This document shows positions 23,661 through 58,649 of a DNA stretch of 64,000 nucleotides, in pieces. Location: the IMG/VR virus record IMGVR_UViG_3300046534_001898; one strand, written 5' to 3'. Positions within the stretch are counted from its first letter, which is position 1. The number at the start of each line of letters is the position of its first letter. Both the position numbers and the translations under genes were made by a program. A model generated the notes under the pieces. That model had not been told where the DNA came from, ran no database searches, and worked only from the letters and a program-made list of their open reading frames with translations. The DNA comes from an uncultured virus (IMG/VR IMGVR_UViG_3300046534_001898) (lineage: Duplodnaviria > Heunggongvirae > Uroviricota > Caudoviricetes).

Positions 23661-23685
23661 TTTTTGAGGGTGAAACTCCCTTTCT

Positions 23686-23740
23686 GTCCCGATGAGAGAT
23701 TGGTCTCATTTACTACGTTCGAATCGTGGTCGGGACACCA
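23686..23740 (+). ncRNA. Anticodon-less mini-tRNA with encoded CCA
   Basis: gtcccga/tcgggac acceptor, one hairpin (loop gattgg), T arm with ttcgaat, ACCA end. Confidence 0.7.
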
Positions 23741-23741
23741 A

Positions 23742-23814
23742 CCCCTTGAAGCTCTATTGGTTGAGCAGCGGTCTCTAAAACCGTAGTGTGCGAGTTCAAG
23801 TCTCGTCAAGGGGG
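23742..23814 (+). tRNA. Amber suppressor tRNA (CUA) with a Trp-like body
   Basis: Full cloverleaf, anticodon arm gcggt-ctCTAaa-accgt, G73, short variable loop. Confidence 0.88.
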
Positions 23815-23819
23815 CAAAT

Positions 23820-23872
23820 GGTGAGGCATCTAGTTGGAGATGTTCGTGAAGGTTCGATCCCTTCTCTCACCA
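23820..23872 (+). ncRNA. Anticodon-less mini-tRNA
   Basis: ggtgagg/tctcacc acceptor, catct-agttgg-agatg hairpin, gaagg-ttcgatc-ccttc T arm. Confidence 0.7.
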
Positions 23873-23876
23873 CAAA

Positions 23877-23927
23877 TGCTGGGATGCTTAGTTGGAAGCA
23901 CATGGGAGTTCGACTCTTCTCTTGGCA
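23877..23927 (+). ncRNA. Anticodon-less mini-tRNA
   Basis: GU-rich acceptor, tgctt-agttgg-aagca hairpin, T loop ttcgact. Confidence 0.65.
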
Positions 23928-23932
23928 CAAAC

Positions 23933-23987
23933 GGAGGGCGCTAAATTGGTAGTGGTAAGTCTTGAGGTTCGAACCCTCTTCCCTCCA
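23933..23987 (+). ncRNA. Anticodon-less mini-tRNA
   Basis: ggaggg/ccctcc acceptor, cgcta-aattgg-tagtg hairpin, gagg-ttcgaac-cctc T arm. Confidence 0.65.
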
Positions 23988-23991
23988 CTAT

Positions 23992-24065
23992 GATCATGTA
24001 GCATTAAGTGGATTATGCAGTCATCTTCGGATGAAAGATTGGAGGTTCGATTCCTTCTATGATCA
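23992..24065 (+). ncRNA. tRNA-like RNA with the anticodon loop replaced by a cUUCGg tetraloop
   Basis: Acceptor, D and T arms present; middle arm is tcatc-ttcg-gatga. Confidence 0.7.
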
Positions 24066-24070
24066 CAAAT

Positions 24071-24121
24071 ACCGAGAACTCAGATGGGAGTTTCGGGGAG
24101 GTTCGAATCCTTCTCTTGGTA
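24071..24121 (+). ncRNA. Anticodon-less mini-tRNA
   Basis: accgaga/tcttggt acceptor, actc-agatgg-gagt hairpin, ggagg-ttcgaat-ccttc T arm. Confidence 0.7.
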
Positions 24122-24126
24122 CAAAT

Positions 24127-24198
24127 GTCCCAATAGCTCAGCGGCAGAGCAATGGTCTCTAAAACCATAGGTCGCAGGTTCGAACCCTGCTTGGGACT
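24127..24198 (+). tRNA. Second amber suppressor tRNA (CUA)
   Basis: Canonical cloverleaf, atggt-ctCTAaa-accat, perfect gtcccaa/ttgggac acceptor, U73. Confidence 0.9.
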
Positions 24199-24517
24199 CT
24201 AATGATGGCAGTAGATAAATATGGTAACAGTATAAATTTAGAAAAGGTTTGGGGAATTGAACACGGCTTTAGTGAAGGTCGATTTGATTCCTCAATTTTT
24301 TCTTGGACTATTTCGAACAAATATAAATCTCAAAGAGCTATGAATCAAGCTTTAAATGATCTCAGAAAACATAATCCAGCAACCGTAAGAACAAGGTCTG
24401 GAAAAGGAGAGTGGACACAGCTTTATAGCCATTATCGACCTGTTCATGTAAATTATAGTTTCTAAATTTGTCTAAACAAATAGAAATTACTATATTTGTA
24501 TTATAAAATCGATACAA

Positions 24518-28639: not shown

Positions 28640-29605
28640 TGGCTATGAAAAGAATCAAAGATATGACCCGTGACGAGTTTGATCGTCACGACCTGATCAT
28701 GAAAGACTTGATGGATTTCATCCTAAAGACTTGGAGTGTTCAAGCTGAACCATTAGGTTATCAGGAGTTTATGAAAGACTATCAAGAATTCAAAGGAATT
28801 GGTGAGGATAAATATGACATCTCTGAATTGTTTGAAGGGTTCATGGATACTCACAAAATGGCGCAGCCTATTTGTTATTCAACCAACTTACCTAATGTAG
28901 GATACAGTGACAGAAATCACGGTAGGAGACCTATGGAGACTCTTTTTAGCTGCTTAATCCAGTATGGAGTAGCCTTGGGAAGAGAGCGTGTTAGAAGAGA
29001 GACTATTCAGTTAGTGAGTGAGATGAAAATGTACAAAAGAACTCACGAAGATTTAATCAATAAACTTATATCATAATGTCAGCAGTAAGAACAAAAGACC
29101 TTATTAAGCTTCTTCAGGAAGCTGATCCTACGGGAGAACAAGAAATTGTAGTAATGACCAATGATGGTTATGCCTACAATTTATCACCCTCTGCTGAACT
29201 CGTTAATTGTAGCGAAGGTCAAGTGGATGAAGATAATGAAAACGTTAATTGTCTAATGCTAGATGCGGCAAATTAATGAGTGAAGAAAAAGAATACATAT
29301 TATGTGCTGCAATAGACTATGATGGCGTAATTGTTTCAGGGCATAGACACGGAGATTGCTACGAAGTTTTAGAAGCTTTAATTGGCAAAATAGAAGTAAG
29401 TAAATTGCCAGATAGAAATAAGCAAGGTTTTTTAACTTCACAAAATAGATATGTCGGAAGAGAGGAGGCTTGGGTAATAGCTAAAGAAAACAATCAAATT
29501 AGGTTTGGGCTAAACGCAAGCGATCATGATAACGACATATTGCTCGAAGGTTTGGAGATTAATGAAAAACCTAAATCAATGTTAATATCTGAAAATCTTT
29601 ACTAA

Positions 29606-30070
29606 ATGAGCAGAAAAAAGAAAGTAGAAAAAAAGAGAAAAGAAGGTCTGAATATTGTATCCATTGTTGGTCAGGTTTCAGAAATATCATCTGAACATCT
29701 AGAGAATCTTCTAGTGTGTAAATTTGTTCTTGTTGTTCATAGAAGTTATATGAACAAGAAGCGTGAAATTCAAATAGATACTCAGAATATTAAAGTGGAG
29801 TGTTACAATAAGATGGCTGGGTTTGCTGATGAACATATTAAGAACGGAAACTTCGTAAATGTTCATGGGTCGATGGTAATTAAAGACGGAGCTTATATAG
29901 TTCAATCAAGACGTATTTCTTTTGTCCCTGAACCTGTTGATTTAAGCGATACTTCTTGGGAATATGATCTACAGGAAGAAGTTAGATGGGGAACCGATGA
30001 TCAGATAGATGATATTTGTTTTTTCATCAAAAACAACTTAAACAGAATTAACAAAGAGGAAACAATTTAA
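29606..30070 (+). CDS. Second, divergent SSB-like OB-fold protein
   Basis: LNIVSIVG...DTQNIKVECYNKMA...KNG..V.V.G parallels the SSB at 11639. Confidence 0.7.
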   Translation: MSRKKKVEKKRKEGLNIVSIVGQVSEISSEHLENLLVCKFVLVVHRSYMNKKREIQIDTQNIKVECYNKMAGFADEHIKNGNFVNVHGSMVIKDGAYIVQSRRISFVPEPVDLSDTSWEYDLQEEVRWGTDDQIDDICFFIKNNLNRINKEETI

Positions 30071-30501
30071 TATGAGTGATTTCAATAAAGTAAGTGAGCG
30101 TTTTGATGATGCAGATTTTAATCAGATTTTTTTGATTAGAGATCGAGTTAAACCTCAATGTTTCAAAATAAATTATGTTCAATACATAATCAAAAGACAC
30201 ATGGAGAAATCTGATATCTCTAAAGACGCAATCCAAGCACTTGAGGAGATAAGAGCTTCAATTGAAGAGATTCGATACCAAAAAGGTCTATTAGAAATTT
30301 TTATTCAAAACTCTTTGGATGAAAAAAACCAATACACAAAAAGGTTTTTAGACTCAAACTTTGAAGAAATTAATTCAAATAAATAACAACATTTTTACTA
30401 TCTTTACTAAATGAGCAGAAAAAGAAAGTGCAATAATATAAATATTTTGGATAACGTGTAACAATTTGTATATTTGTTCCGTTAGACTAATACCAAACGT
30501 T

Positions 30502-30649
30502 TGCAACGTAGATTCTGTTGGAGAGTTATATGGGGTTAGATTTTCATCGAAGAGGGGTATACACCAATTCGGGAGTTTGACTAACCTATCTACTCAAGAA
30601 TCACCGCCTTACTGGGCGGAGGACGTAGGTTCGATTCCTGTCGTTGCCA
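30502..30649 (+). ncRNA. tRNA-Val-like RNA with an insertion of about 80 nt in the D loop
   Basis: gcaacg/cgttgc acceptor, gattc/gaatc D stem around the insert, ccgcc-ttactg-ggcgg arm, T arm. Confidence 0.55.
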
Positions 30650-30784
30650 CTAAGATTTTTTTTGACTGCGAAACGCCCAATGTGATGATAACTCTAGGGT
30701 AGTCTCAGAAATGACGCAGTAATGAGTTCGGATACAGTGACCGATGAAAGTAATGGCACGATAGCTATGCGCTCCAAATAAAAT

Positions 30785-30892
30785 GTTCCTATAGCTCAGT
30801 TGGTAGAGCAGATTGTGGATTAAATGGTTTTGAAAACCGCCCTTGAAAAAGGGGAGCCAGTCAGGTCGCAAGTTCAAGTCTTGCTGGGATCA
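30785..30892 (+). ncRNA. tRNA-like RNA with a structured anticodon loop of about 40 nt
   Basis: Canonical D (gctc-agttggta-gagc) and T arms; gattg/cagtc stem encloses two small hairpins. Confidence 0.65.
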
Positions 30893-31076
30893 CGAAATTC
30901 TTGATTGCCATTAAGTAATCAAGTGAGGTAAGAACAAATACCTATCAACAAAAATGGCGTTTAAAGTCAAGCACTATAGCTGGCGAAACATGAGGTGAAT
31001 CAATAGACTGATAGCTGGTCGTTGTTCTGAGATTTAATAATGTTTCGCTTTTTTTCCTCCCTTAAATATTTAAGTA

Positions 31077-31391
31077 ATGCCATATAAATCAGAAAAAATT
31101 AAAATAGCAGGAGGTAAATATGACAGAAGGGTTAAGCTTACTTCCGAACAAAAAAAAGAAATCCACGCTAATGAATTAGGTTTGTCTCAAAGAAAATTAG
31201 CTGTTAATTATGGAGTGTCAAGGAGAACTATTCAATTTATACTTGATCCTGAAAAATTAAAAGAGAATCTTAAAAGAAGGAAAGAAAGAGGCGGTTCAAA
31301 GCAGTACTACAACAAAGAAGAGTGGGTTAAAACAATGAAGGAACATAGAGAGTACAAACAAGATTTAAAGTTAAAAGGAAAAATAAATTGA
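31077..31391 (+). CDS. HTH DNA-binding protein
   Basis: LSQRKLAVNYGVSRRTIQFI. Confidence 0.75.
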   Translation: MPYKSEKIKIAGGKYDRRVKLTSEQKKEIHANELGLSQRKLAVNYGVSRRTIQFILDPEKLKENLKRRKERGGSKQYYNKEEWVKTMKEHREYKQDLKLKGKIN

Positions 31392-31475
31392 AATTTTTTT
31401 GGTTTCTATGAAACTTTTACTATCTTTGTTGCGTTATAAAGAAACAGAAAATAAATTTTTGCTATATTTAAAAAC

Positions 31476-31568
31476 ATGAACACAATTAACAACATATCTA
31501 CATGGTCATCTTCAAGATGGAGTTCGAGACAGTCTCGAAGCGATCAAGGTATGTCAAATTTTTTGTGA
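31476..31568 (+). CDS. Putative attenuator leader peptide, Ser/Trp/Arg-rich (30 aa)
   Basis: MNTINNISTWSSSRWSSRQSRSDQGMSNFL, lying between a promoter motif and a terminator. Confidence 0.85.
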   Translation: MNTINNISTWSSSRWSSRQSRSDQGMSNFL

Positions 31569-31592
31569 TGATAGCATAAAATTAAACGATAT

Positions 31593-31627
31593 AAAAAAGC
31601 CTTGGTCATTACGACTGAGGCTTTTTT
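31593..31627 (+). terminator. Attenuator terminator upstream of the Ser/Arg/Trp tRNA operon
   Basis: aaaaaagccttggtc/gactgaggctttttt; the 5' arm can also pair with leader segment gatcaaggt (31542-31550). Confidence 0.85.
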
Positions 31628-31643
31628 GCGTTTAAGATAATTT

Positions 31644-31727
31644 GGAGATGTGACAGAGCGGAAATGTGCCTGTTTTGAAAATAGAGACTTGTATATTGCA
31701 ACGGGGGTTCGATTCCCTCCATCTCCG
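31644..31727 (+). tRNA. tRNA-Ser(UGA)
   Basis: Cloverleaf with long variable arm, loop ttTGAaa. Confidence 0.85.
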
Positions 31728-31800
31728 CAAATGGAATAAAAAGTTATTCCAATTGCGATAGTTTTAGATATTACCGCATATTTATGTAGAAATATATAAT

Positions 31801-32199
31801 ATGAAAGAATGTCTAAGTTGCAAAAGTGAATTAAAAAAGGATACGCAGAAATACTGCTCTTATCAATGTCAGAATGATTATCAAAGAATGAAAAAAGTAA
31901 ATCTTTGGTTAGAGGGAAGGCATGATGGTATGAGAGGTAAAACCGCAACAGCCATGTGGATAAAGTGGTATCTTATTAAACAAAATGGAGAAAAGTGCAT
32001 GGAGTGCAATTGGTGTGAAAGAAATGAACACACTGGAAATATTCCTATAGAACTTGAACATGTTGATGGAGATTTCACTAATAATAAAATTGAAAACTTA
32101 AAATTGTTATGCCCAAATTGTCACTCTCTTACTGGGACTTATAAAGGGGCTAATAAGAAGAAAGGAAGACCACGATCTAAATATTATCGTGGCACTTAA
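31801..32199 (+). CDS. HNH endonuclease inside the tRNA array
   Basis: C..C...ELEHVDG...NN..ENL.LLCPNCHS. Confidence 0.92.
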   Translation: MKECLSCKSELKKDTQKYCSYQCQNDYQRMKKVNLWLEGRHDGMRGKTATAMWIKWYLIKQNGEKCMECNWCERNEHTGNIPIELEHVDGDFTNNKIENLKLLCPNCHSLTGTYKGANKKKGRPRSKYYRGT

Positions 32200-32202
32200 C
32201 AA

Positions 32203-32292
32203 GGAGGGGTTATCCGAAAGATTCTGGGTAGCGGAGCTGGCTTTGAACCCCAGTTGTCTTACGACTTGAGGGTTCGAATCCCTTCCCCTCCT
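32203..32292 (+). tRNA. Atypical tRNA with an ambiguous anticodon (Ser UGA or Gln UUG)
   Basis: ggagggg/cccctcc acceptor, 9-nt loop ctttgaacc, long variable arm. Confidence 0.55.
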
Positions 32293-32350
32293 CTTTTATA
32301 AGCCAGAGGGCTTATATATTGACATTATAAGTCTGGTGGCTTATAAATTT

Positions 32351-32433
32351 GGAAGATTGACAGAGCGGAAATGTGCCTGTTTCGAAAACAGAGGCTTGCT
32401 ACTGCAACGGGGGTTCGATTCCCTCATCTTCTA
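32351..32433 (+). tRNA. tRNA-Ser(CGA)
   Basis: Loop ttCGAaa, long variable arm. Confidence 0.85.
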
Positions 32434-32504
32434 CCGATATAACCTAATGAGGTTATAATTGAATAATATGCATTGATAAGAGCATAATTGAAGTATTGAA
32501 TTAT

Positions 32505-32592
32505 AGAGGTATGGCAGAGTGGTAATGTACTTGCTTGCTAAGCAATGGTCTGTCTAACGGCAGCGGGGGTTCGATTCCCTCTACCTCTACCA
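32505..32592 (+). tRNA. tRNA-Ser(GCU)
   Basis: Loop ttGCTaa, long variable arm, encoded CCA. Confidence 0.88.
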
Positions 32593-32593
32593 T

Positions 32594-32677
32594 AGTAGAT
32601 TGACAGAGCGGTAATGTGCTTGCTTGGAAAGCAACGGCTTGTATTTTGCAACACTGGTTCGATTCCAGTATCTACTA
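32594..32677 (+). tRNA. tRNA-Ser(GGA)
   Basis: Loop ttGGAaa, long variable arm. Confidence 0.85.
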
Positions 32678-32684
32678 CTAAATT

Positions 32685-32758
32685 GGTCTCATAGCTTAAC
32701 TGGACAAAGCATCAGATTTCTAATCTGAGGAGTCGGGGTTCGAGTCCCTGTGGGATCA
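32685..32758 (+). tRNA. tRNA-Arg(UCU)
   Basis: tcaga-ttTCTaa-tctga. Confidence 0.9.
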
Positions 32759-32858
32759 CTAATATCTGAGAAGGTTGTTATTTTTAACACTTTTCTCAGA
32801 TGGAATAATGAAGATAGATAATCGGACGCTTTCCGATTATCTATTAAAAAATTGACAT

Positions 32859-32938
32859 GGGGGTGTAACCGAGGTATTTTTCTAAATTGCTATCCGTAAT
32901 TGAAGTTGAAAATGGGGGTTTGAATCCCTCCGCCCCTT
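32859..32938 (+). ncRNA. Degenerate tRNA-like element
   Basis: gggggtg/cgcccct acceptor and a T arm; no canonical D or anticodon arm. Confidence 0.45.
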
Positions 32939-32968
32939 CTAAAGCTCTCTAAAAGTAGAGAGCAACAC

Positions 32969-33052
32969 ACTGCGGCTACTCATTGGTGAGATAGAAGGTC
33001 TCCAAAACCTTTGCCCGTAAGGGATGTGTCGGTTCGACCCCGACTCGCAGTG
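32969..33052 (+). tRNA. tRNA-Trp(CCA) with a long variable arm
   Basis: aaggt-ctCCAaa-acctt, ccc-gtaa-ggg variable stem, G73. Confidence 0.78.
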
Positions 33053-33058
33053 CAAAAC

Positions 33059-33129
33059 ACAGGTGTAGTTCAATGGTAGAATAGCGGTCTCCAAAACCGT
33101 TGATGGGGATTCGAATTCCTCCACTTGTG
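33059..33129 (+). tRNA. tRNA-Trp(CCA)
   Basis: gcggt-ctCCAaa-accgt, G73. Confidence 0.92.
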
Positions 33130-33148
33130 CAAATTTAGGGTCAGATTT

Positions 33149-33188
33149 TGAGTAAACCCTAAAATAACGTTATTTTAGGGTTTACTCA
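33149..33188. repeat. Perfect 40-bp palindrome between tRNA genes
   Basis: tgagtaaaccctaaaataacgttattttagggtttactca equals its own reverse complement. Confidence 0.95.
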
Positions 33189-33204
33189 GTTTTTGACATT
33201 AAAA

Positions 33205-33291
33205 GGTCTCATGGTAGAACTGGATATTGCACCACCCTCCTAAGGTGGCGACCCGAAAGGGCAACTGGGGGTTCGAATCCCTCTGAGATCA
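33205..33291 (+). tRNA. tRNA-Arg(CCU) with a long variable arm
   Basis: ccacc-ctCCTaa-ggtgg, ccc-gaaa-ggg variable stem. Confidence 0.78.
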
Positions 33292-33334
33292 CAAAAGTTT
33301 TTTGTACATTTGCATTTGGAAAAAAAGTTAGAAG

Positions 33335-34672
33335 ATGGCATATTTAATATTAGAAGGTGAAGGTGAAAATACGTTGGTGCATGAGGATGATTTAAAGTCT
33401 TTCGTGGCTAAAGGTCGTCTTGTATTTAGCATTAATACTGAAAACTTTGATGAGGCAAAAAAAGTGTATAACAATTACCTAGACACTTACTCTGAAAAGA
33501 TTGATATTTCAAAAATTAAAACAACACCTCCAAATATGGAATTTGGTTTTTGTGTCTACGGAGAGCCTTCTCAGGAGATTATAAATTGGGCAGGTGTTCA
33601 TGACTTTAAATTAGAGCCATCAGGCAAGTTTACCAATATTCTGATACCAGAAGACTTTAATCTATTTGAGTGTCTCCAGAAGCCTTCATTTCCCTTCTAT
33701 TTAGATGGTTTCTCTCCCAACCTAAACAAGGAATTACACTTTGGTCATTTTACCAATTTTATTGTGGCTAAAGCGATTCATTGTTTAACCTCAATGAAAC
33801 CCATTGCCATTCTTGGTGATTCCTTAGGGACTCCAGAACAGCATCAAGAAAACCTTAAGCTTGTAAAACAATACTATCAAAAATACGATTATAATCCTGA
33901 GTTATTTTTTGCTTCTGAAATGAAGCTTAAAGATACTTCTATTCTAAAAGAGGGTGAAGGAAAATATGAAGGAACAAAGGTTTTTGATCTAGGTGAAGAA
34001 AAGCAGGTTGGAGTAAAGTCTAACGGCTCTACTTCTTATTTCTATCAAGATATTGCATTTGCTCAGGAGCTTGATAACCCTACTTTGGTTATGACGGGAA
34101 CCGAGCAGAAAGAACACTTCCAGAAAGTATCTCAAATCAACCCTAATGTATCTTATAAAGGTCTGGGTTTGGTTAAACTCAAAACTCAAGATGGAGTTGA
34201 GAAGATGAGTTCTCGTTTAGGTAATACCATCTTCATGAAAGAGGTTATTAAAAACCTAGAGACTGAGTTTGTTGACCCGAAACTTTCGTACAATATTGTG
34301 GCGGGAAAAATCCTTAACTATAAAGTTGTTTCGGAAAAGATTGTAGTTGAAGAAGAGCTTTCTCAACACGATAAGTCTGAGGGTCTTTATATTAGTTATA
34401 CCTGCGCTCGTTTGAAGTCAGCTGGCTGTGAGGTGGTTGATGTTGAGCTACAGGATCACAAGTTAGTTCATGCGTTGATTATGGCTCAGAAACAAATAGA
34501 ACCACATACTTTCTTAAGGGCTGTTTTAGTTTATTGTAAGGAGATCAATAATTTGTATCAAAATCATATAATCAAAGATAATCCAAAGAATAAAGAAATG
34601 TTTACTCAGAAGCTTGCTCAATTAGAGAAGGCTATTCAGTATCTAGGTCTTTATAGTGTTGATCGAGTTTAA
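33335..34672 (+). CDS. argS: Arginyl-tRNA synthetase (compact)
   Basis: FSPNLNKELHFGH (HIGH motif), KSNGSTSYFYQD, KMSSRLG, YISYTCAR. Confidence 0.88.
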   Translation: MAYLILEGEGENTLVHEDDLKSFVAKGRLVFSINTENFDEAKKVYNNYLDTYSEKIDISKIKTTPPNMEFGFCVYGEPSQEIINWAGVHDFKLEPSGKFTNILIPEDFNLFECLQKPSFPFYLDGFSPNLNKELHFGHFTNFIVAKAIHCLTSMKPIAILGDSLGTPEQHQENLKLVKQYYQKYDYNPELFFASEMKLKDTSILKEGEGKYEGTKVFDLGEEKQVGVKSNGSTSYFYQDIAFAQELDNPTLVMTGTEQKEHFQKVSQINPNVSYKGLGLVKLKTQDGVEKMSSRLGNTIFMKEVIKNLETEFVDPKLSYNIVAGKILNYKVVSEKIVVEEELSQHDKSEGLYISYTCARLKSAGCEVVDVELQDHKLVHALIMAQKQIEPHTFLRAVLVYCKEINNLYQNHIIKDNPKNKEMFTQKLAQLEKAIQYLGLYSVDRV

Positions 34673-35289
34673 GATTCAGAAGAGTGATTTATTCCACCTC
34701 TTTGGCAAATCACTCCAAAGTAATCGTTGTAAAAAACATCTTGTTGATGTCCGTTTTTGAATTTGATAACAAAAGATGATTCACGGCTTGGTGTCCAGAT
34801 ATCTTCAATGTCTTCGGAACCATTGTTGATCATGTCAACAACTACTTCAATAGGCAAGTCTTTACTAAGTTCTTCAGGCATATCTGAACCCATTGTCTCT
34901 TTGATTGACCTGCTACTATCGTAGTACATGTTTAGTTCGTATTTTCCACTATCCATTCTGTAAATCTGAACATGAAGTAAATTTTTTGCTGGCTCACCAT
35001 TTCTGTTTAGTTCAAAAGAATTTCTTTTAGTTTGACCGTATGTAATTCCCCCAACACCAAACTGAAACAATTGTTCATCATTAATCTCGTATCCTTTTTT
35101 TGACAAAAATTCTTCCACTTCACTTAATGCTTCCGATAGTGTGTTATGGTATATCTCAAAATCACTTGATGAAACATTAGATTCTTTTATAATCTCTTTA
35201 TACTGATTATGAGAGATTACACCAGCAAGCATTTTTGATCTTGCTGCTTCTTTGATTAAGGAATTGTTGCTCATGACATTGTTTTTCAA
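34669..35289 (-). CDS. Hypothetical protein, putative late gene
   Basis: ORF preceded by CTATTTAT on the minus strand. Confidence 0.6.
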   Translation of the reverse strand: MKNNVMSNNSLIKEAARSKMLAGVISHNQYKEIIKESNVSSSDFEIYHNTLSEALSEVEEFLSKKGYEINDEQLFQFGVGGITYGQTKRNSFELNRNGEPAKNLLHVQIYRMDSGKYELNMYYDSSRSIKETMGSDMPEELSKDLPIEVVVDMINNGSEDIEDIWTPSRESSFVIKFKNGHQQDVFYNDYFGVICQRGGINHSSES

Positions 35290-54413: not shown

Positions 54414-54539
54414 CTAACTGATAATCAGCAAGATATAAAAAAGTTTCAAAAATAGTTTGGTAATGAGGAAACTTTTTATATCTTTGTTGCGTTATTAAGA
54501 AAGAGAAATAAAAATTTACACATACTTAGAAACAAGAAA

Positions 54540-54644
54540 ATGAAAACAATGAACACAAATATCGCAATGACTTATGCCCCGATGGGGAATGGTTATGATG
54601 CTGCGCCCGATTATGGCGATAGTAGCGGTACAGGTGTGTTCTAA
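54540..54644 (+). CDS. Putative attenuator leader peptide, Tyr/Ala/Pro/Gly/Asp-rich (34 aa)
   Basis: MKTMNTNIAMTYAPMGNGYDAAPDYGDSSGTGVF, lying between a promoter motif and a terminator. Confidence 0.85.
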   Translation: MKTMNTNIAMTYAPMGNGYDAAPDYGDSSGTGVF

Positions 54645-54670
54645 GTTTTGAACATATAAATGACTTGAAG

Positions 54671-54707
54671 AAGTCCTGTACCAACTAAAAGGTACAGGAC
54701 TTTTTTT
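54671..54707 (+). terminator. Attenuator terminator upstream of the Tyr/Pro/Gly/Asp/Ala tRNA operon
   Basis: aagtcctgtacc/ggtacaggactt plus a T tract; leader segment ggtacagg (54627-54634) is perfectly complementary to the 5' arm. Confidence 0.9.
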
Positions 54708-54755: not shown

Positions 54756-54838
54756 TGTGAGGTGGCTGAGTGGTTAAAAGCGCCAGACTGTAAATCTGGT
54801 CTCTTCGGAGTTCGGGGGTTCGAATCCCTCCCGCACAA
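54756..54838 (+). tRNA. tRNA-Tyr(GUA)
   Basis: ccaga-ctGTAaa-tctgg, long variable arm. Confidence 0.9.
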
Positions 54839-54901
54839 CAGAAATGTTCTTTGACGTATTGGAGTGATTAAAATGGGAAGGTAACCATCCTTCCCAAAAA
54901 T

Positions 54902-54974
54902 CTGGATGTAGCTCAGTTGGCAGAGTGCTTGCTTTGGGAGCAAGAAGCCGCAGGTTCGAGTCCTGCTATCCAGA
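54902..54974 (+). tRNA. tRNA-Pro(UGG)
   Basis: cttgc-ttTGGga-gcaag, C1:G72, A73. Confidence 0.92.
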
Positions 54975-54980
54975 CTTAAT

Positions 54981-55064
54981 CGAGATGACAATTTGGGTAC
55001 GCCCATTATTGGCGGTACTAGGATTGATCATCTTAGTTTTCGGGTTCGAATCCCTACATTTCGA
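54981..55064 (+). ncRNA. Degenerate tRNA-like element
   Basis: cgagatg/catttcg acceptor, T loop ttcgaat, enlarged D region, loop ttgatca. Confidence 0.45.
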
Positions 55065-55068
55065 CAAT

Positions 55069-55213
55069 CAAAGTATAGCTTATTGGTAAAGCGCCCCTTG
55101 GAGAATGGTAGGTTCGATTCCTCCCAGCGTGACTAAAAAAAATATCATCACGTTGTAGTTTATTGGTAAAACAATGTTTAGGAGAATGGTAGGTTCGAAT
55201 CCTCCTGCTTTGA
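55069..55213 (+). ncRNA. Pair of tRNA-Pro-like units with reciprocally swapped acceptor strands
   Basis: caaagta pairs with tgctttg of unit 2; cagcgtg of unit 1 pairs with cacgttg of unit 2. Confidence 0.6.
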
Positions 55214-55224
55214 CAAATTAAAAT

Positions 55225-55309
55225 GGGGGTACGCCAGAGTTGGAGAGCTTGGAGCGGTCTGTAAAACCGTTGGCGAAAGCCTGAGTAGGTTCGAATCCTA
55301 TTACCCTCA
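55225..55309 (+). tRNA. tRNA-Tyr(GUA)
   Basis: gcggt-ctGTAaa-accgt, long variable arm. Confidence 0.85.
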
Positions 55310-55314
55310 CTTAT

Positions 55315-55388
55315 CTTGATGTAGCTCAGTTGCGTAGAGTACCTGCCTTGGAAGCAGGGAGTCGCTGGTTCGAGTCCAGCCATTGAGA
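55315..55388 (+). tRNA. tRNA-Pro(UGG)
   Basis: cctgc-ctTGGaa-gcagg. Confidence 0.9.
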
Positions 55389-55399
55389 CAAATAAAAAT

Positions 55400-55474
55400 C
55401 TAGTTGCGATACATTGGCGTGTTTACCTCACTTGGACTGAGGGTTGCTTGAAGGTTCGACTCCTTTCAACTAGA
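55400..55474 (+). tRNA. tRNA-Pro(UGG) with an atypical D arm
   Basis: cctca-ctTGGac-tgagg, ctagttg/caactag acceptor. Confidence 0.75.
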
Positions 55475-55479
55475 CAATT

Positions 55480-55553
55480 GCAGGAGACGCATAAATGGTG
55501 GTGCGCCAGCCTTCCAAGTTGGAATAGAGTCGGTTCGATCCCGTCCTTCTGCA
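55480..55553 (+). tRNA. tRNA-Gly(UCC)
   Basis: ccagc-ctTCCaa-gttgg. Confidence 0.8.
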
Positions 55554-55558
55554 CAAAT

Positions 55559-55631
55559 GCGGTATTCGTATATTGATTGATTACGTCTGGTTTCCATCCA
55601 GAAGAGGGCAGTTTGATTCTGTTATACCGCT
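55559..55631 (+). tRNA. tRNA-Gly(UCC)
   Basis: tctgg-ttTCCat-ccaga, U73. Confidence 0.8.
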
Positions 55632-55709
55632 CAATAAGTCACATTGTCTAGGCATGGCGCAATGTGAGGAAGGTTAGGGTGAAAACCCTATTTGTAAGAC
55701 TGTCTGCAT

Positions 55710-55781
55710 GCGGAAGTAGCTCAGAGGCAGAGCATTAGGTTTCCAACCTGAGGGTCGAGATTTCGAAATTCTTCTTCCGCT
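55710..55781 (+). tRNA. tRNA-Gly(UCC)
   Basis: ttagg-ttTCCaa-cctga, U73. Confidence 0.85.
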
Positions 55782-55822
55782 CAAATGTGTGCATATGGGG
55801 ACAGTCGCTCTGTCTCCGCCAT

Positions 55823-55895
55823 GCGGTATTCGTATATTGGTTGATTACACCACATTGCCAATGTGGAGAGGGCAGTTCGATTCTGCTATACCGCT
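55823..55895 (+). tRNA. tRNA-Gly(GCC)
   Basis: ccaca-ttGCCaa-tgtgg, U73; paralogue of the 55559 gene. Confidence 0.87.
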
Positions 55896-55928
55896 CAAAA
55901 AGTTATTAGTTCTTTAAAAACTAAAAAT

Positions 55929-56001
55929 AGTCCAGAGGTGTTAATGGTAACACGCCTCCCTGTCACGGAGGAAATTGCGGGTTCGATTCCCGTGTGGACT
56001 G
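55929..56001 (+). tRNA. tRNA-Asp(GUC)
   Basis: cctcc-ctGTCac-ggagg, G73. Confidence 0.9.
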
Positions 56002-56120
56002 CAATTAAAAGGTGTTCGGATTCGAACGTATGCAAAGAAGAAGCGATGATTGTACATATTAAATCGTGAAGTACCTTAGTGTTAGGGCGCAAGCCAAACA
56101 CAGCACCTTTTTCTTTATTC

Positions 56121-56197
56121 GGTTTTATATGCTGCTCTGGTGAGTGGATTTGCCCTGTCACGGCTCAAAAACGAGGGATCGTAACCCTCTAAGACCG
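56121..56197 (+). tRNA. Degenerate tRNA-Asp(GUC)
   Basis: gcc-ctGTCac-ggc, ggtttta/taagacc acceptor, atypical T loop. Confidence 0.55.
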
Positions 56198-56201
56198 CTA
56201 T

Positions 56202-56273
56202 AGTGTCGTAGTTTAAAAAATAGAATTCCTCCGTTAGAGGGGGCGGGTATAGGTGAGAGTCCTGTCGATACTA
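56202..56273 (+). ncRNA. Degenerate tRNA-like element
   Basis: agtgtcg/cgatact acceptor, 6-nt middle loop, T loop tgagagt. Confidence 0.45.
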
Positions 56274-56277
56274 CTAT

Positions 56278-56351
56278 AGTGATGCAGCATATTGGTGTAT
56301 GGCGCTACGTTGTCAGCGTAGAGATTGCGGGTTCGAATCCCGTCATTACTG
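56278..56351 (+). tRNA. tRNA-Asp(GUC)
   Basis: ctacg-ttGTCag-cgtag, G73. Confidence 0.87.
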
Positions 56352-57164
56352 CAAATTATTAACTTTATAAAATTAGAAAACATGGATGACTTGGGGGCGA
56401 TAAGCTGAATAAAATCGAAAACAGAAAAAAAACAATTGGATCACGAAACCATAGGAAGCTTAAGAAATATTCCGACAACTTTAATGAGATGTTTGATTTC
56501 TTTTTGAAATCATCTCATAGTGGATTACTGGAGTTTTGCGGCTCAGGTGTTAGTGTTGAATCCGACCCGAATTCTCCAGACGGCAAATTTTGCTTTAGGA
56601 AATATGAAAACGGTCATAATGATTGGCATGTCACTCGTCATCCTAATATTTTGTATCATGTGGTGAGGGGTAAAAAGAGTTTCGGACTTTGGGTAAAACA
56701 ATGGTCGGAAGGAATTGCAGAATGTTCTTTTACAAAAGAAGAAATCATTCAAGAATTCACAGATAGAGATTTAGTAATCCCTAAAGGATTGATGAAGAGT
56801 TTTGATGACTCAATTCGGAAGGAAAAACAAAAACGTTATGATAGAGATTTACGAGAATTGGAAAGAACTAAATGATATTGAAATTTGCAACAATGTTGTT
56901 GCCGACATTGAAGTTGGATTAGTTTTAATCGAAAAGAGAAGCAAAAGGAAATGTATTATAGATGGTAAATCTAAAAACACCATTTCCATTTGGGGAACAA
57001 AAACTTCAAAAGAAGGAATCAATTGCGCTCAGTGGACTCAGTTAGATGGGAAGCACGGAGCAGTTGCTAACTTCTTTAAGTCTGATGAAGTGATTGAAGA
57101 TGTTTTAGCTTGGAAAGATGCCAAAATTAGAAAAGTGGCGCAGAAGTATAGAAAATAATAAAAT

Positions 57165-57238
57165 GGGGACGCATGTGCCAAGGCTGGCGAGGATGCTTTG
57201 CAAGTAACCTGTGGTGAATTCGATTTTCACCGTCTCCA
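57165..57238 (+). tRNA. tRNA-Ala(UGC)
   Basis: G3:U70, loop ttTGCaa. Confidence 0.8.
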
Positions 57239-57398
57239 CTAAAACAAAAGATGATAGTTACCGCATTGGCTGACTGACGAGAGCTACGTCAATAGTTATA
57301 ACAAGGGTTGTGTAGCGTTTTGATTTTAAACCTTAGCGGGTTTAAGGGATTTGAATCATAAGAACGACTTGTATTGCTTTTTACTTTTGTTTTTATTT

Positions 57399-57455
57399 GG
57401 GGAGGTATAAGAGGTGTAAACGGTATACCCAAGGGTTCGACTCCCTTCCTCTCCA
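57399..57455 (+). ncRNA. Anticodon-less mini-tRNA with Ala identity elements (G3:U70, A73)
   Basis: ggggagg/cctctcc acceptor, aaggg-ttcgact-ccctt T arm, a single middle hairpin. Confidence 0.7.
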
Positions 57456-57485
57456 CTAATAGTAGAAATAATAATTTATAAACAC

Positions 57486-57558
57486 GGGGCTGTAGCTAAA
57501 CTGGCTTAGCACCTCCCTTGCACGGAGAAGCATGTGGGTTCGACTCCCATCAGCTCCA
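57486..57558 (+). tRNA. tRNA-Ala(UGC)
   Basis: ggggctg/cagctcc acceptor, ctcc-ctTGCac-ggag. Confidence 0.92.
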
Positions 57559-57571
57559 CAACATTTTAATT

Positions 57572-58645
57572 ATGAAACAAATTACGTTATTTCCTATGCA
57601 ATCTACAGATGACTTGCATAGAGTTAAATTGGGAATTGATCCCACAAGCGATAAGCTCCACTTGGGTCATTTGGCTCCTTTAAGAATTGCACGAAAGATG
57701 CAGGAACGAGGAAAGCACTTGACATTGGTTTTAGGTACGTTTACAGCTCAAATGGGCGATCCTTCGGGACGAGATAAAGCTAGACCTATTTTACCAGCGG
57801 AAGAGGTTAAGCAGAACGGAGAGAAGCTTTTAGAACAAGCTTCTAAAGTTTTGATCGAAGGTTTTGATGTTTTTAGAAATGGAGATGTTTTCGATAAGAT
57901 GACAGTTCCAGAATTAATGGCATTGGTTTCTAATTTTACATTGAAGAGAATTACATCGAGAGATGCTTTTCAGCTTAGAATTGAAAACAACCAGTCAATT
58001 TCTATTCAGGAATTGATTGTCCCAGTTCTTCAGGGTTTTGACAGTGTTTCCTTGAAGACTGAAATCGAGATTGGAGGTTCTGATCAGTTGTTCAACTTTC
58101 AATTGACCAGAGAATTGCAACAGATGCATGGTCTTGAACCAGAGGTTTGTGTTATGACTCCTATCTTGAGTGGGACTGACGGTAGGAAGATGTCAAAATC
58201 TTTAGGGAATTGCATCTTTTTGGATGAGACTCCTGAAAACATGTTTGGTCTTTGTATGAGTATTTCGGATGAAGTTATGGATGAGGAATTTATTCCAATA
58301 TTAACTGATCTAAAAGACTTGGAAGAAAGTCCAATAAAAAGAAAGATGCAAATGGCGTTTGATATCGTGGAACAGATTCACGGAATTAATGCGGCTAGAT
58401 TGGCTCAGAAGCATTTTGAATCTACAATTCAGAATAGACAGCTTCCGCAAGACATTAAAACAACCAATCACAAAGATATCATTGATATCATCAAAGAAGT
58501 TAGAAACTGTAGTGGTTCTGAAGCTATGAGGTTGATTAAAGGTGGTGGAATTAAGATTGATGGAAAGAAGGTCGAGGAGCGTTGTGAAGTCAATCAAGGT
58601 GTTGTTGTAAAGGTTGGTAAGAGAGACTTTGTAGAAGTCATCTGA
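57572..58645 (+). CDS. tyrS: Tyrosyl-tRNA synthetase
   Basis: GIDPTSDKLHLGH, GDPSGR, LQGFD, GGSDQ, KMSKS and a C-terminal S4 domain. Confidence 0.96.
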   Translation: MKQITLFPMQSTDDLHRVKLGIDPTSDKLHLGHLAPLRIARKMQERGKHLTLVLGTFTAQMGDPSGRDKARPILPAEEVKQNGEKLLEQASKVLIEGFDVFRNGDVFDKMTVPELMALVSNFTLKRITSRDAFQLRIENNQSISIQELIVPVLQGFDSVSLKTEIEIGGSDQLFNFQLTRELQQMHGLEPEVCVMTPILSGTDGRKMSKSLGNCIFLDETPENMFGLCMSISDEVMDEEFIPILTDLKDLEESPIKRKMQMAFDIVEQIHGINAARLAQKHFESTIQNRQLPQDIKTTNHKDIIDIIKEVRNCSGSEAMRLIKGGGIKIDGKKVEERCEVNQGVVVKVGKRDFVEVI

Positions 58646-58649
58646 TAAT

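What the first reader, a model, noticed from the sequence alone, without database searches (positions are those of the whole stretch)
31476..31627. Ser/Trp/Arg leader peptide with competing hairpins
Seen: the leader MNTINNISTWSSSRWSSRQSRSDQGMSNFL has 9 Ser (TCT, TCA, TCG, AGT, AGC; 5 of the 6 codons), 2 Trp and 3 Arg, and ends in TGA TGA TAG. Segment gatcaaggt (31542-31550) can pair with terminator 5' arm gccttggtc (31599-31607). A further hairpin, ttcgaga/tctcgaa (31523-31539), lies in the sensing region. Downstream are Ser UGA/CGA/GCU/GGA, Arg UCU/CCU, two Trp tRNAs and ArgRS. Inference: stalling at codons 8-18 leaves the antiterminator free, and the mixed synonymous codons sample several isoacceptors.
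Basis: partly seen in the sequence, partly recalled or inferred. Interest (0 to 1): 0.9.

Follow-up and report, generated by a model that had tools for sequence, protein, structure and literature searches.

The report
Leader-peptide attenuator gating phage tRNA array
In this uncultured large phage a tiny gene spelled in serine, tryptophan and arginine codons, joined to a switchable transcription stop, sits in front of the phage's own Ser/Arg/Trp tRNA genes, so the phage probably makes these tRNAs mainly when ribosomes read those codons slowly.

Summary
Only "ArgRS" is weak: 38.8 bits against a cut-off of 261.65.

The unit runs in this order:
- a Bacteroidota-type promoter, TTTG-N19-TATCTTTG (31398-31428)
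- a 30-codon ORF (31476-31568)
- a Y-shaped 5' domain
- a 9-bp antiterminator (31542-50 pairing with 31599-607)
- a terminator (-18.6 kcal/mol)
- 16 nt later, the Ser/Arg/Trp tRNA array

Decisive new evidence: a paralogous second unit (54456-54707) has the same promoter and the same start of the peptide. Its leader, MKTMNTNIAMTYAPMGNGYDAAPDYGDSSGTGVF, precedes the Tyr/Pro/Gly/Asp/Ala array and TyrRS.

- Among 191 small ORFs, each leader ranks first for its own array's amino acids. Swapping the sets gives 2/30 and 2/34.
- Both antiterminators beat shuffles (1-3 and 8-15 of 1000).
- Ribosome-footprint folding frees the antiterminator only for stalls at codons 2-18 (unit 1) or 2-25 (unit 2).
- I found the same design in Maribacter phage Panino and in huge phage LR756501.1, but not in a crAss-like phage.

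Weak points: only two near-identical relatives, so no covariation; no RNA data; and the terminator wins at equilibrium, so the switch must be kinetic.

This scan had already noted the same design on other DNA. Ten literature searches found no published account.

Best reading: a multivalent ribosome-mediated attenuator of tRNA genes, confidence about 0.7.

The parts
31398..31428 (+). Unit 1 promoter, Bacteroidota type: TTTG, 19 nt, TATCTTTG. The transcript start is inferred about 7 nt downstream (~31435).
   Evidence: The pattern TTTG-N18-21-TAnnTTTG occurs 15 times in the window against 2.39 expected; 0 of 100 shuffles reach 15. It is conserved in unit 2 and in L001. The consensus itself is recalled from the Bacteroides promoter literature.
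31476..31568 (+). Leader ORF 1, 30 codons: MNTINNISTWSSSRWSSRQSRSDQGMSNFL. The regulatory run is codons 8-22, densest at 10-18 (WSSSRWSSR).
   Evidence: The ORF is kept in L001 and in the variant contig of run X8.
31492..31507 (+). Segment 1, the 5' strand of helix P1 (anti-antiterminator), with a 3-nt bulge at 31500-31502. It overlaps codons 6-11.
   Evidence: MFE folds. The same helix forms in L001.
31510..31539 (+).
31542..31554 (+). Segment 2. It pairs either with segment 1 (P1) or, through 31542-31550, with the terminator's 5' arm (antiterminator).
31592..31627 (+). Intrinsic terminator. Arms are 31599-31607 and 31613-31621, the loop is ATTAC, the T-run is 31622-31627, and an A-run lies 5' of the stem.
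   Evidence: -18.6 kcal/mol. Not listed by the simple scan.
31644..33292 (+). tRNA array 1: Ser(UGA), Ser(CGA), Ser(GCU), Ser(GGA), Arg(UCU), Trp x2, Arg(CCU). It also holds tRNA-like stretches at 32203-32291 and 32859-32938 and an inserted HNH endonuclease gene at 31801-32199.
   Evidence: The HNH gene is absent from the variant contig in X8.
33335..34672 (+). 445-aa protein with a weak likeness to the ArgRS catalytic domain.
54456..54486 (+). Unit 2 promoter (TTTG, 19 nt, TATCTTTG), paralogous to that of unit 1.
54540..54644 (+). Leader ORF 2, 34 codons: MKTMNTNIAMTYAPMGNGYDAAPDYGDSSGTGVF. The antiterminator segment GGTACAGG lies at 54627-54634.
54666..54707 (+). Unit 2 terminator. Arms are 54673-54682 and 54691-54700; the T-run is 54701-54707.
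   Evidence: -24.2 kcal/mol.
54756..57559 (+). tRNA array 2: Tyr, Pro, Tyr, Pro, Pro, Gly(UCC) x3, Gly(GCC), Asp x2, Ala(UGC).
57518..58645 (+). Tyrosyl-tRNA synthetase. The listed TTG start overlaps tRNA-Ala, so the true start is probably the ATG at 57572.
   Evidence: TIGR00234 tyrS scores 242.3 bits against a cut-off of 113.8. Pfam tRNA-synt_1b.

Best explanation
Unit 1 is a ribosome-mediated (leader-peptide) transcription attenuator that gates the phage's own Ser/Arg/Trp tRNA array. It is one of at least two paralogous units in this phage.

Proposed sequence of events:
1. Transcription starts about 7 nt after the TAnnTTTG box. A 40-nt A-rich 5' UTR without a Shine-Dalgarno sequence leads into a 30-codon ORF.
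2. If Ser-, Trp- and Arg-tRNAs are plentiful, the ribosome runs through codons 8-22 and on over segment 2 (31542-54) while RNA polymerase makes the terminator. Behind the ribosome segment 2 can pair again with segment 1. The terminator hairpin forms and the transcript ends at 31627, 16 nt before the first tRNA.
3. If any of those charged tRNAs is short, the ribosome stalls in the run WSSSRWSSR. It then sits on segment 1 and the inner hairpins. Segment 2 stays free and pairs with the terminator's 5' arm as that arm emerges, and polymerase reads on into the array.
4. New phage tRNAs, once charged, relieve the stall and shut the unit again. That makes it a per-isotype supply homeostat.

Shown here: the sequence anatomy, the enrichment of matched codons, the alternative pairings and their excess over chance, the paralogous unit, and the same design in other phages.

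Inferred: translation of the ORF, the transcript start, the kinetic choice between structures, the direction of the response, and its biological trigger (host tRNA loss or codon demand).
For: 1. Anatomy. The order is promoter (15 matches against 2.39 expected, 0/100 shuffles), ORF, terminator (-18.6 kcal/mol), then a tRNA 16 nt later. None of the 15 promoter matches lies inside either array.

2. Codon match. The leader has 14/30 Ser+Arg+Trp and ranks 1st of 191 small ORFs. All 3 amino acids of the array are present, and 9 in a row belong to the set.

3. Internal replicate. Unit 2 shares the promoter (a 16-mer exact in both) and the peptide start MNT.N.I. Its leader is 17/34 Tyr+Pro+Gly+Asp+Ala, also 1st of 191, and covers all 5 amino acids of array 2. 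Swapping the sets gives 2/30 and 2/34, so GC-rich stems do not explain the composition.

4. Switch. The antiterminator duplexes are -12.6 and -13.4 kcal/mol. Shuffles reach these values 3/1000 and 8/1000 times, or 1/1000 and 15/1000. With a 30-nt footprint, the nascent RNA pairs the 5' arm with segment 2 when the A site is at codons 2-18 (unit 1) or 2-25 (unit 2). It does not do so at later codons, nor at the unit 2 stop codon, nor in free unit 2 RNA. The leaders fold far better than shuffles: z = -4.4, -6.9 and -6.0, with 0/200 shuffles each.

5. Relatives. L001 keeps an ATG-started ORF in the same frame although its 5' part has been rebuilt. It is identical from codon 10 of the window's ORF to the first stop and has the same fold. 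A variant contig in run X8 lacks the upstream HTH gene (31056-31397 skipped) and the HNH gene but keeps promoter, leader, terminator and tRNA. Its one change inside the ORF is 31500 A>T, which turns Thr9 into Ser and lies in the P1 bulge. The terminator therefore does not simply belong to the HTH gene.

6. Same design elsewhere, checked here.
- Maribacter phage Panino: MKTQRLHQELEQPTNIGRDFYGVDGY precedes Pro, Glu, Gln, His, Leu, Leu, Arg (10 of 10 consecutive residues in the set, 6/6 kinds). MRAATGIAIIGRTKDKPLGRISVL precedes Ala, Lys, Ile, Gly (1st of 45 small ORFs).
- LR756501.1: MLQTSKHSKHFSSSSKWFTTFGVETDLLCVS precedes Trp, His, His, Phe, Lys, Ser (14 in a row; antiterminator reached by 7/1000 shuffles). 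MNNILHINLLNSLCLLGIKLIG, using all six Leu codons, precedes five Leu tRNAs.

7. Context. TyrRS, RtcB and a weak Rnl1-like ligase follow array 2.
Against: - No covariation. Of 128 loci holding the neighbouring HTH gene, only L001 has the element. L001 and the X8 contig are identical over both strands of the antiterminator and the terminator stem.
- At equilibrium the full-length RNA forms the terminator at every stall position in both units (0 antiterminator pairs). The switch therefore has to be kinetic, which I could not simulate.
- Unit 1 fits less cleanly than unit 2. In free nascent RNA of unit 1 the lowest-energy fold already has the antiterminator. A ribosome at the stop codon (mask 31551-31580) does not cover 31542-50.
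- The CGA codon has no cognate tRNA in the array.
- L001 keeps both Trp codons, yet no Trp tRNA was found on its 4.65-kb contig.
- A second ORF (31502-31579, 25 aa) overlaps and is equally conserved.
- Part of the Ser/Arg content follows from the palindrome TCGAGA/TCTCGA.
- The design is not universal. The tRNA cluster at 23.7 kb in this window has no leader, nor do the crAss-like Kolpuevirus tRNAs. Panino unit 1 ranks only 12th of 45 on whole-ORF composition, and the Panino unit 2 antiterminator is not significant (241/1000).
- No Rfam leader family matches. Thr_leader scores 22.6 bits against 55, E = 0.71.
Confidence: 0.7

Rival explanations
1. The unit is an independent small transcription unit. 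Promoter, structured RNA and terminator make a ~190-nt small RNA (or a 30-aa peptide) that acts in trans. The terminator merely insulates it from the tRNAs, which are made by unregulated leak-through or from unrecognised promoters.
For: The RNA is strongly structured (z = -4.4 to -6.0). The core is 100% identical at the nucleotide level between the window and L001, more than coding alone requires. At equilibrium the terminator always wins. Attenuator RNAs that also act in trans are known, for example rnTrpL (abstract of PMC6614838 seen in the listing).
Against: This reading does not explain three things: why each of two paralogous units is the top-ranked ORF for exactly its own array's amino acids, why the terminator's 5' arm has a significant alternative partner inside the ORF, or why unrelated phages repeat the design with other amino-acid sets. 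No consensus promoter lies between the terminator and the tRNAs.
Confidence: 0.12
2. The leader is translated and coupled to the array, but by different logic. Possibilities: translation as such opens the terminator or blocks Rho, so the array is on only when translation is active; or stalling recruits a nuclease or tmRNA. Under any of these the polarity or the signal differs from the classical model.
For: In unit 1 neither the free nascent RNA nor the ribosome at the stop codon gives the clean classical pattern. Several units (unit 1, Panino U1, LR756501 U1) have segment 2 lying 16-26 nt before the stop, so a terminating ribosome would not mask it. Phage Panino encodes a tmRNA inside its tRNA region.
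Against: Unit 2 behaves classically in all three states: free, stalled and at the stop. A matched set of codons is what a stall sensor needs, and is not needed merely to pass a ribosome.
Confidence: 0.1
3. The element is an ordinary terminator of the upstream HTH gene plus a chance ORF whose Ser/Arg content comes from palindromic stems.
For: TCGAGA/TCTCGA gives Ser-Arg in both arms. The ORF is short. The N-terminal part is read from different nucleotides in L001.
Against: The X8 variant lacks the HTH gene but keeps the unit from 31398 onward. A promoter lies between the gene and the ORF. The ORF ranks 1 of 191. A replicate unit exists at 54.5 kb, and the swap control gives 2/30 and 2/34.
Confidence: 0.05

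Closest known systems
Leader-peptide transcription attenuators of enterobacterial amino-acid operons (trpL, hisL, leuL, pheL; multivalent thrL and ilvL)
   Same: A short ORF holds a run of regulatory codons. Alternative 1:2, 2:3 and 3:4 pairings end in an intrinsic terminator. The stall position decides which pairing forms. As in thr and ilv, several amino acids are sensed together. The model as described for pheL was read in passages of PMC3082878.
   Different: The controlled genes are tRNA genes of a virus, not biosynthetic enzymes. The codon set lists the isotypes of the array, and several synonymous codons are used. The promoter is Bacteroidota-type with no Shine-Dalgarno sequence. No Rfam leader model matches. 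That trp 3:4 is more stable than 2:3 is recalled, not checked.
pheM leader of the pheST (phenylalanyl-tRNA synthetase) operon
   Same: A leader peptide senses charged tRNA and controls a component of the translation apparatus rather than a biosynthetic pathway. In this window TyrRS and an ArgRS-like gene lie behind the arrays.
   Different: It senses one amino acid and controls a cellular gene with a protein product. This comparison is recalled from memory; no paper was read here.
T-box riboswitches
   Same: They sense the supply of a particular tRNA and switch an antiterminator against a terminator upstream of translation-related genes.
   Different: A T-box binds uncharged tRNA directly and needs no ORF. 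No T-box match appeared in the Rfam scan of 29000-35000 at E <= 1. The element here has a matched ORF instead.
The same design noted earlier by this scan on other phage genomes, and found here in Maribacter phage Panino and LR756501.1
   Same: A promoter is followed by an ORF of ~22-34 codons listing the array's amino acids. A copy of the terminator's 3' arm lies inside the ORF, then come the terminator and the tRNA array.
   Different: The sequences are unrelated and the amino-acid sets differ. The earlier notes are unchecked AI notes on DNA I could not see.

Membership tests
Ribosome-mediated (leader-peptide) transcription attenuators | Own promoter and a short leader transcript upstream of the regulated genes | tested here: met
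   TTTG-N19-TATCTTTG lies at 31398-31428. The pattern is enriched in the window (15 against 2.39 expected) and conserved in unit 2 and L001. It is a consensus match only; the transcript start was not measured.
Ribosome-mediated (leader-peptide) transcription attenuators | Short translatable ORF in the leader | tested here: inconclusive
   An ATG ORF of 30 codons has an A-rich upstream region without a Shine-Dalgarno sequence, like the window's other genes. The ORF is kept in L001 and X8. Translation itself was not shown, and an overlapping 25-aa ORF exists.
Ribosome-mediated (leader-peptide) transcription attenuators | Run of codons cognate to what is regulated | tested here: met
   14/30 Ser/Arg/Trp, 1st of 191 small ORFs. 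Unit 2 has 17/34 and is also 1st of 191. The swap gives 2/30 and 2/34.
Ribosome-mediated (leader-peptide) transcription attenuators | Intrinsic terminator between the ORF and the regulated genes | tested here: met
   A 9-bp GC-rich stem plus T6 at -18.6 kcal/mol, 16 nt before tRNA-Ser. Not listed by the simple scan.
Ribosome-mediated (leader-peptide) transcription attenuators | Antiterminator that excludes the terminator, and an anti-antiterminator that overlaps the stall site | tested here: met
   The 2:3 duplex is -12.6 kcal/mol, reached by 1-3 of 1000 shuffles. P1 (31492-507 pairing with 31542-54) appears in the folds. Caveats: the terminator is favoured at equilibrium, and the free nascent RNA of unit 1 already prefers 2:3.
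Ribosome-mediated (leader-peptide) transcription attenuators | Covariation supporting the alternative helices | tested here: inconclusive
   Only two relatives exist, and both are identical in the helices. Their differences fall in the P1 bulge, the terminator loop and the A-run.
Ribosome-mediated (leader-peptide) transcription attenuators | Read-through rises when the cognate charged tRNA is limiting | not testable with these tools
   This needs infected cells or a coupled in vitro system.
Ribosome-mediated (leader-peptide) transcription attenuators | Regulated genes are amino-acid biosynthesis or synthetase genes (the classical scope) | tested here: not met
   The first regulated genes are tRNAs. 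This is the point of novelty and not a failure of mechanism.
Rfam leader families (Thr_leader and others) | Score at or above the family's gathering threshold | tested here: not met
   The best match is Thr_leader at 22.6 bits against 55, E = 0.71.
T-box riboswitch | Match to the T-box covariance model | tested here: not met
   No T-box match appears among the 22 matches at E <= 1 in 29000-35000.

The most novel reading that the evidence does not exclude
Large tRNA-rich phages of Bacteroidota, and possibly other phages, carry a modular sensor of charged-tRNA supply that appears not to have been described in print. Each isotype-sorted block of viral tRNA genes sits behind its own 'test' peptide that lists the block's amino acids and samples their synonymous codons. 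The virus therefore measures decoding speed codon family by codon family and switches on only the tRNA block that is short. This would work as a homeostat, and probably also as a trigger against host tRNA loss or tRNA-cleaving defences; RtcB and an RNA-ligase-like gene lie next to array 2. The modules evolve by duplicating the promoter and leader start and rewriting the codon run.
Probability: 0.5. Interest if true: 0.9.

Novelty: new variant of a known kind. Interest (0 to 1): 0.85.

Why it matters
Why phages carry tRNA genes, and when they use them, is an old open question. The usual proposals are codon-usage matching, replacement of degraded host tRNAs, and escape from anticodon nucleases. 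A leader that reads out the decoding speed of exactly the codons served by the downstream tRNAs would show that at least some phages regulate tRNA supply by demand. It would also make the question directly testable, because the regulatory codons name the signal.

It would extend trp-style attenuation, a textbook mechanism for enzyme operons, to non-coding RNA genes and to viruses, in a phylum (Bacteroidota) where such control is little studied.

In practice, the codon-matched leaders give a sequence-only rule for finding regulated tRNA operons. They also offer compact, programmable sensors of specific aminoacyl-tRNA pools. A cultured system with the same design exists: Maribacter phage Panino.

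Tried and rejected
Searches for relatives of the element
- Megablast of 31000-34700 against phage records: no match.
- Distant blastn: 64 records, none covering 80% or more, all short tRNA or HNH pieces.
- tblastn-based locus searches with the 445-aa and 376-aa neighbours in IMG/VR: no relatives.
- Exact or degenerate pattern scans of IMG/VR found only the L001 contig or nothing.
- Two genome-contig scans found nothing.
- The promoter pattern found 11 stretches. 10 of them are ordinary promoters before protein genes, without a leader or tRNA.
- The HTH neighbour has 590 homologues, but 127 of 128 loci lack the element, and the 10 closest loci have other genes downstream.

Protein-level search with the leader
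- The search of protein representatives gave 13 hits. All are long (479-1831 aa) Ser-rich proteins with 4-11 matched stretches, which means compositional matches and no small-peptide relative.

Rejected leads
- The 12-mer TTTGCTATATTT just before the ATG occurs twice but is not above chance (34/100 shuffles).
- Sigma-70-type promoter hits are not enriched (34 against 28.4).
- I considered stop-codon recoding, prompted by the two CTA-anticodon tRNAs, but found no support in this window.
- T-box and known leader families were rejected on Rfam scores.

Expression and other checks
- No RNA holder is listed among the 20 runs, so nothing can be said on expression.
- Parts of the stretch without contig cover in runs X7-X10 are not interpreted.
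- The earlier-findings look-ups by place and by sequence gave nothing.
- No whole genome is held for this window.
- Structure prediction, complex prediction and the protein atlas were not used because they do not bear on an RNA switch.

Literature
All 10 searches returned no paper that joins leader peptides or attenuation with phage or viral tRNA genes. The Panino paper (PMC11590407, passages read) mentions 20 tRNAs but no leader or terminator. About 1.7 million PMC articles and the subscription journals are not covered by those searches. Older work on E. coli tRNA-Phe genes, which I half recall, could not be checked.
Full report
**What the window is.**
The window is AT-rich (GC 0.33-0.41) and densely coded on the + strand. 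It carries phage-type genes: an HNH endonuclease, SSB, a GP88-like protein, a polyvalent ADP-ribosyltransferase protein and an FtsH-like protease. It also holds 23 tRNA genes in three clusters. No whole genome is held for it, and it has no close relative among deposited phages. Gene starts lack Shine-Dalgarno sequences. The pattern TTTG-N18-21-TAnnTTTG, which I recall as the Bacteroides/Bacteroidota promoter consensus, occurs 15 times against 2.39 expected (0 of 100 shuffles). The host is therefore probably a member of Bacteroidota. The neighbouring HTH protein has homologues that their sources label Bacteroidota and Flavobacterium.

**The observation.**
- The peptide is MNTINNISTWSSSRWSSRQSRSDQGMSNFL followed by TGA TGA TAG.
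- It has 9 Ser in 5 of the 6 codons, 2 Trp and 3 Arg.
- The 31523-31539 hairpin appears in the folds.
- The 9-bp complementarity between 31542-50 and 31599-607 is -12.6 kcal/mol.
- The downstream tRNAs are Ser UGA/CGA/GCU/GGA, Arg UCU/CCU and two Trp.
- Only 'ArgRS' is weak: 38.8 bits against a cut-off of 261.65 for argS, below the Pfam threshold, and no match to a solved structure.
- The simple terminator scan did not list the hairpin, probably because the A-run pairs with the T-run. ViennaRNA gives it -18.6 kcal/mol.

- A consensus promoter (31398-31428) lies 7 nt after the stop of the HTH gene and 47 nt before the ATG.
- The leader folds into a Y-shaped 5' domain. Helix P1 pairs 31492-31507 with 31542-31554, with a 3-nt bulge at 31500-02. 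It encloses two hairpins, 31510-22 and 31523-39.
- P1 is the missing anti-antiterminator. Segment 2 (31542-54) can pair either with segment 1 or with the terminator's 5' arm.
- Only 16 nt separate the T-run from tRNA-Ser(UGA). None of the 15 promoter matches lies inside the array.

**The decisive finding: a second, paralogous unit.**
A second unit sits upstream of the other large array: Tyr, Pro, Tyr, Pro, Pro, Gly x4, Asp x2 and Ala at 54756-57559, followed by a clear TyrRS.
- It has the same promoter. The 16-mer ATCTTTGTTGCGTTAT is exact in both units (alignment).
- It has a similar A-rich 5' UTR and an ORF that begins alike (MKTMNTNI... against MNTINNI...).
- The ORF continues AMTYAPMGNGYDAAPDYGDSSGTGVF.
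- A -24.2 kcal/mol terminator follows. An 8-nt copy of its 3' arm (GGTACAGG, 54627-34) lies near the end of the ORF.

I compared all 191 ATG ORFs of 25-45 aa in the six frames of the window.
- Leader 1 ranks first for Ser+Arg+Trp, at 14/30 (background 0.119; binomial 2.6e-6).
- Leader 2 ranks first for Tyr+Pro+Gly+Asp+Ala, at 17/34 (background 0.254; binomial 1.8e-3).
- Swapping the sets gives 2/30 and 2/34. This also rules out GC-rich stems as the cause of the composition.
- Every isotype of each array appears in its leader (3/3 and 5/5).
- Leader 2 uses all four Ala codons and several codons that are rare in the phage's genes, such as CCG, CCC, GCC and GGC.

**The switch.**
- The antiterminator duplexes are stronger than in dinucleotide shuffles of the upstream RNA: 3/1000 and 8/1000, or 1/1000 and 15/1000 in a second run.
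- I masked a 30-nt ribosome footprint and folded the nascent RNA up to the end of the terminator's 5' arm.
- In unit 1 the arm pairs with 31542-50 for every stall with the A site at codons 2-18, loses that partner at codons 19-20, and does not pair with it again until the stop codon.
- In unit 2 the arm pairs with the 54627-64 region for codons 2-25. It does not pair there later, at the stop codon, or in free RNA.
- Unit 2 thus reproduces all three states of the classical model.
- Unit 1 is less clean. Its free nascent RNA already prefers the antiterminator, and a ribosome at the stop (mask 31551-80) does not cover segment 2. Termination after full translation must therefore rely on timing and on P1 re-forming.
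- In the full-length RNA the terminator is the lowest-energy fold at every stall position in both units. The antiterminator is not competitive at equilibrium and the choice must be kinetic. I recall that the same holds for the E. coli trp leader, but I did not check it.

**Relatives.**
The neighbouring HTH gene has 590 homologues, but only 1 of 128 loci holding it (L001, 91% protein identity) carries the element.
- L001 has a 50-nt insertion in the 5' UTR and a different ATG. Its 5' part is otherwise rebuilt and codon 9 is lost.
- Even so, it keeps an ORF in the same frame, MKVTTNISWSSSRWSSRQSRSDQGMSNFL.
- It is identical from codon 10 to the first stop, has the same Y-domain and terminator, and is followed by Ser(GGA), Arg(UCU) and Arg(CCU). 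No Trp tRNA was found on its 4.65 kb.

Contigs from public runs add a third version.
- An 18-kb contig in run X8 lacks the HTH gene (31056-31397 skipped) and the HNH gene. It keeps 31398-31731 with six substitutions and one inserted base.
- The only change inside the ORF is 31500 A>T. It turns Thr9 into Ser and lies in the P1 bulge.
- The unit from promoter to tRNA therefore travels as a module, and its terminator does not belong to the HTH gene.
- All differences among the three versions fall in unpaired positions (bulge, terminator loop, A-run, 5' UTR). This agrees with the structure but is not covariation.
- X8 also holds other contigs that share the promoter but continue differently, one of them as unit 2's 5' UTR. 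This hints at further copies outside the window.

**The same design elsewhere, checked here.**
- Maribacter phage Panino (PP540027.1, a cultured flavobacterial phage). MKTQRLHQELEQPTNIGRDFYGVDGY, with a terminator, precedes Pro, Glu, Gln, His, Leu, Leu, Arg; residues 4-13 are 10 of 10 in the set and cover 6/6 kinds. MRAATGIAIIGRTKDKPLGRISVL, with a terminator, precedes Ala, Lys, Ile, Gly and ranks 1st of 45 small ORFs.
- On whole-ORF composition Panino unit 1 ranks only 12th of 45.
- The Panino unit 2 antiterminator is not significant (241/1000). The Panino unit 1 test used a mis-set arm.
- Huge phage LR756501.1. MLQTSKHSKHFSSSSKWFTTFGVETDLLCVS precedes Trp, His, His, Phe, Lys, Ser, with 14 set residues in a row and a 9-bp perfect antiterminator reached by 7/1000 shuffles. 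MNNILHINLLNSLCLLGIKLIG, using all six Leu codons, precedes five Leu tRNAs.
- Negative cases: the window's own cluster at 23.7 kb starts directly after a gene, the crAss-like Kolpuevirus tRNAs follow a CDS without a leader, and small clusters of 1-3 tRNAs in LR756501.1 show none.
- After I had found unit 2, the scan's notebook showed that the same design has been noted on at least seven other genomes. Those are unchecked AI notes on DNA I could not see, and I do not count them as evidence.

**Comparison with what is known.**
The element works like the multivalent leader-peptide attenuators of thr and ilv, and like pheM-pheST in controlling translation machinery. It meets the structural criteria of that class but matches no Rfam leader or T-box model. 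It differs in what it controls (viral tRNA genes), in listing a whole set of isotypes, and in its promoter and initiation signals. Ten full-text searches found no paper joining leader peptides or attenuation with phage tRNA genes. The Panino paper does not mention it. Subscription journals and about 1.7 million PMC articles were not searchable.

**Verdict.**
The best explanation is a ribosome-mediated attenuator that turns the Ser/Arg/Trp tRNA array on when those codons are decoded slowly (confidence about 0.7). It is a new variant of a known kind of control and is of high interest. It gives phage tRNA genes a demand-driven logic and a directly testable signal, and a cultured system with the same design exists. 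RtcB and a weak Rnl1-like ligase next to array 2 fit a phage that contends with tRNA damage, but that link is inference.

Noticed in passing
window 23660-24200: A dense cluster sits directly after a gene. It holds two tRNAs with the amber-reading anticodon CTA (called tRNA-Pyl by ARAGORN) among several ~65-75-nt tRNA-like repeats with GGTTCGA T-arm motifs that ARAGORN does not call. Reading TAG as sense barely lengthens ORFs in this window, so what the suppressors read is unclear.
   Followed up: partly
window 30446-30892: A consensus promoter (30446-30476) is followed by a ~190-nt RNA ending in a tRNA-like acceptor/T-arm. After it comes a tRNA (Rfam 40.7 bits, 30785-30892) with a ~35-nt insertion in the anticodon loop. 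Relaxed ARAGORN calls it Ser(GGA) with an intron and also proposes a permuted tmRNA; both calls are low-confidence.
   Followed up: partly
window 32859-32938; L142 4941-5083: An 80-nt tRNA-like element (Rfam tRNA 24.1 bits, below threshold) is 88% identical to a stretch of Maribacter phage Panino that is annotated there as a hypothetical protein (CDS0068). The two phages are otherwise unrelated.
   Followed up: no
window 31056-31397, 31732-32267, 32827-33204: The HTH gene, the HNH endonuclease gene and a stretch holding the Trp tRNAs are presence/absence or replacement polymorphisms in a related contig (run X8). L001 has a GIY-YIG-like ORF where the window has HNH. Homing endonucleases seem to shuffle the array.
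   Followed up: partly
window 57518-62098: A translation-repair block lies behind array 2: TyrRS (242 bits), a protein with a weak T4 Rnl1 C-terminal match (59119-60261), RtcB (60602-62098, 270 bits), then tRNA-Met.
   Followed up: partly
window 33148-33195: A 19-bp perfect hairpin followed by a T-run lies between the second Trp tRNA and tRNA-Arg(CCU). It may end the array-1 transcript before Arg(CCU) and the ArgRS-like gene. Variant contigs in X7 and X10 join 33099/33100 to 33266.
   Followed up: no
window 31077-31391: The 104-aa HTH protein is very widespread: 590 homologues at E <= 0.001 and many at 60-90% identity in aquatic metagenomes. Its downstream neighbours vary. This is a strikingly conserved small phage regulator of unknown role.
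   Followed up: partly
window 31409-31472 versus run X8: Three further X8 contigs share the unit's promoter region and then diverge. One continues as unit 2's 5' UTR, one runs directly into a tRNA-like 5' end, and one continues into unknown sequence (tables 7-8). The phage probably has more copies of this promoter outside the window.
   Followed up: no
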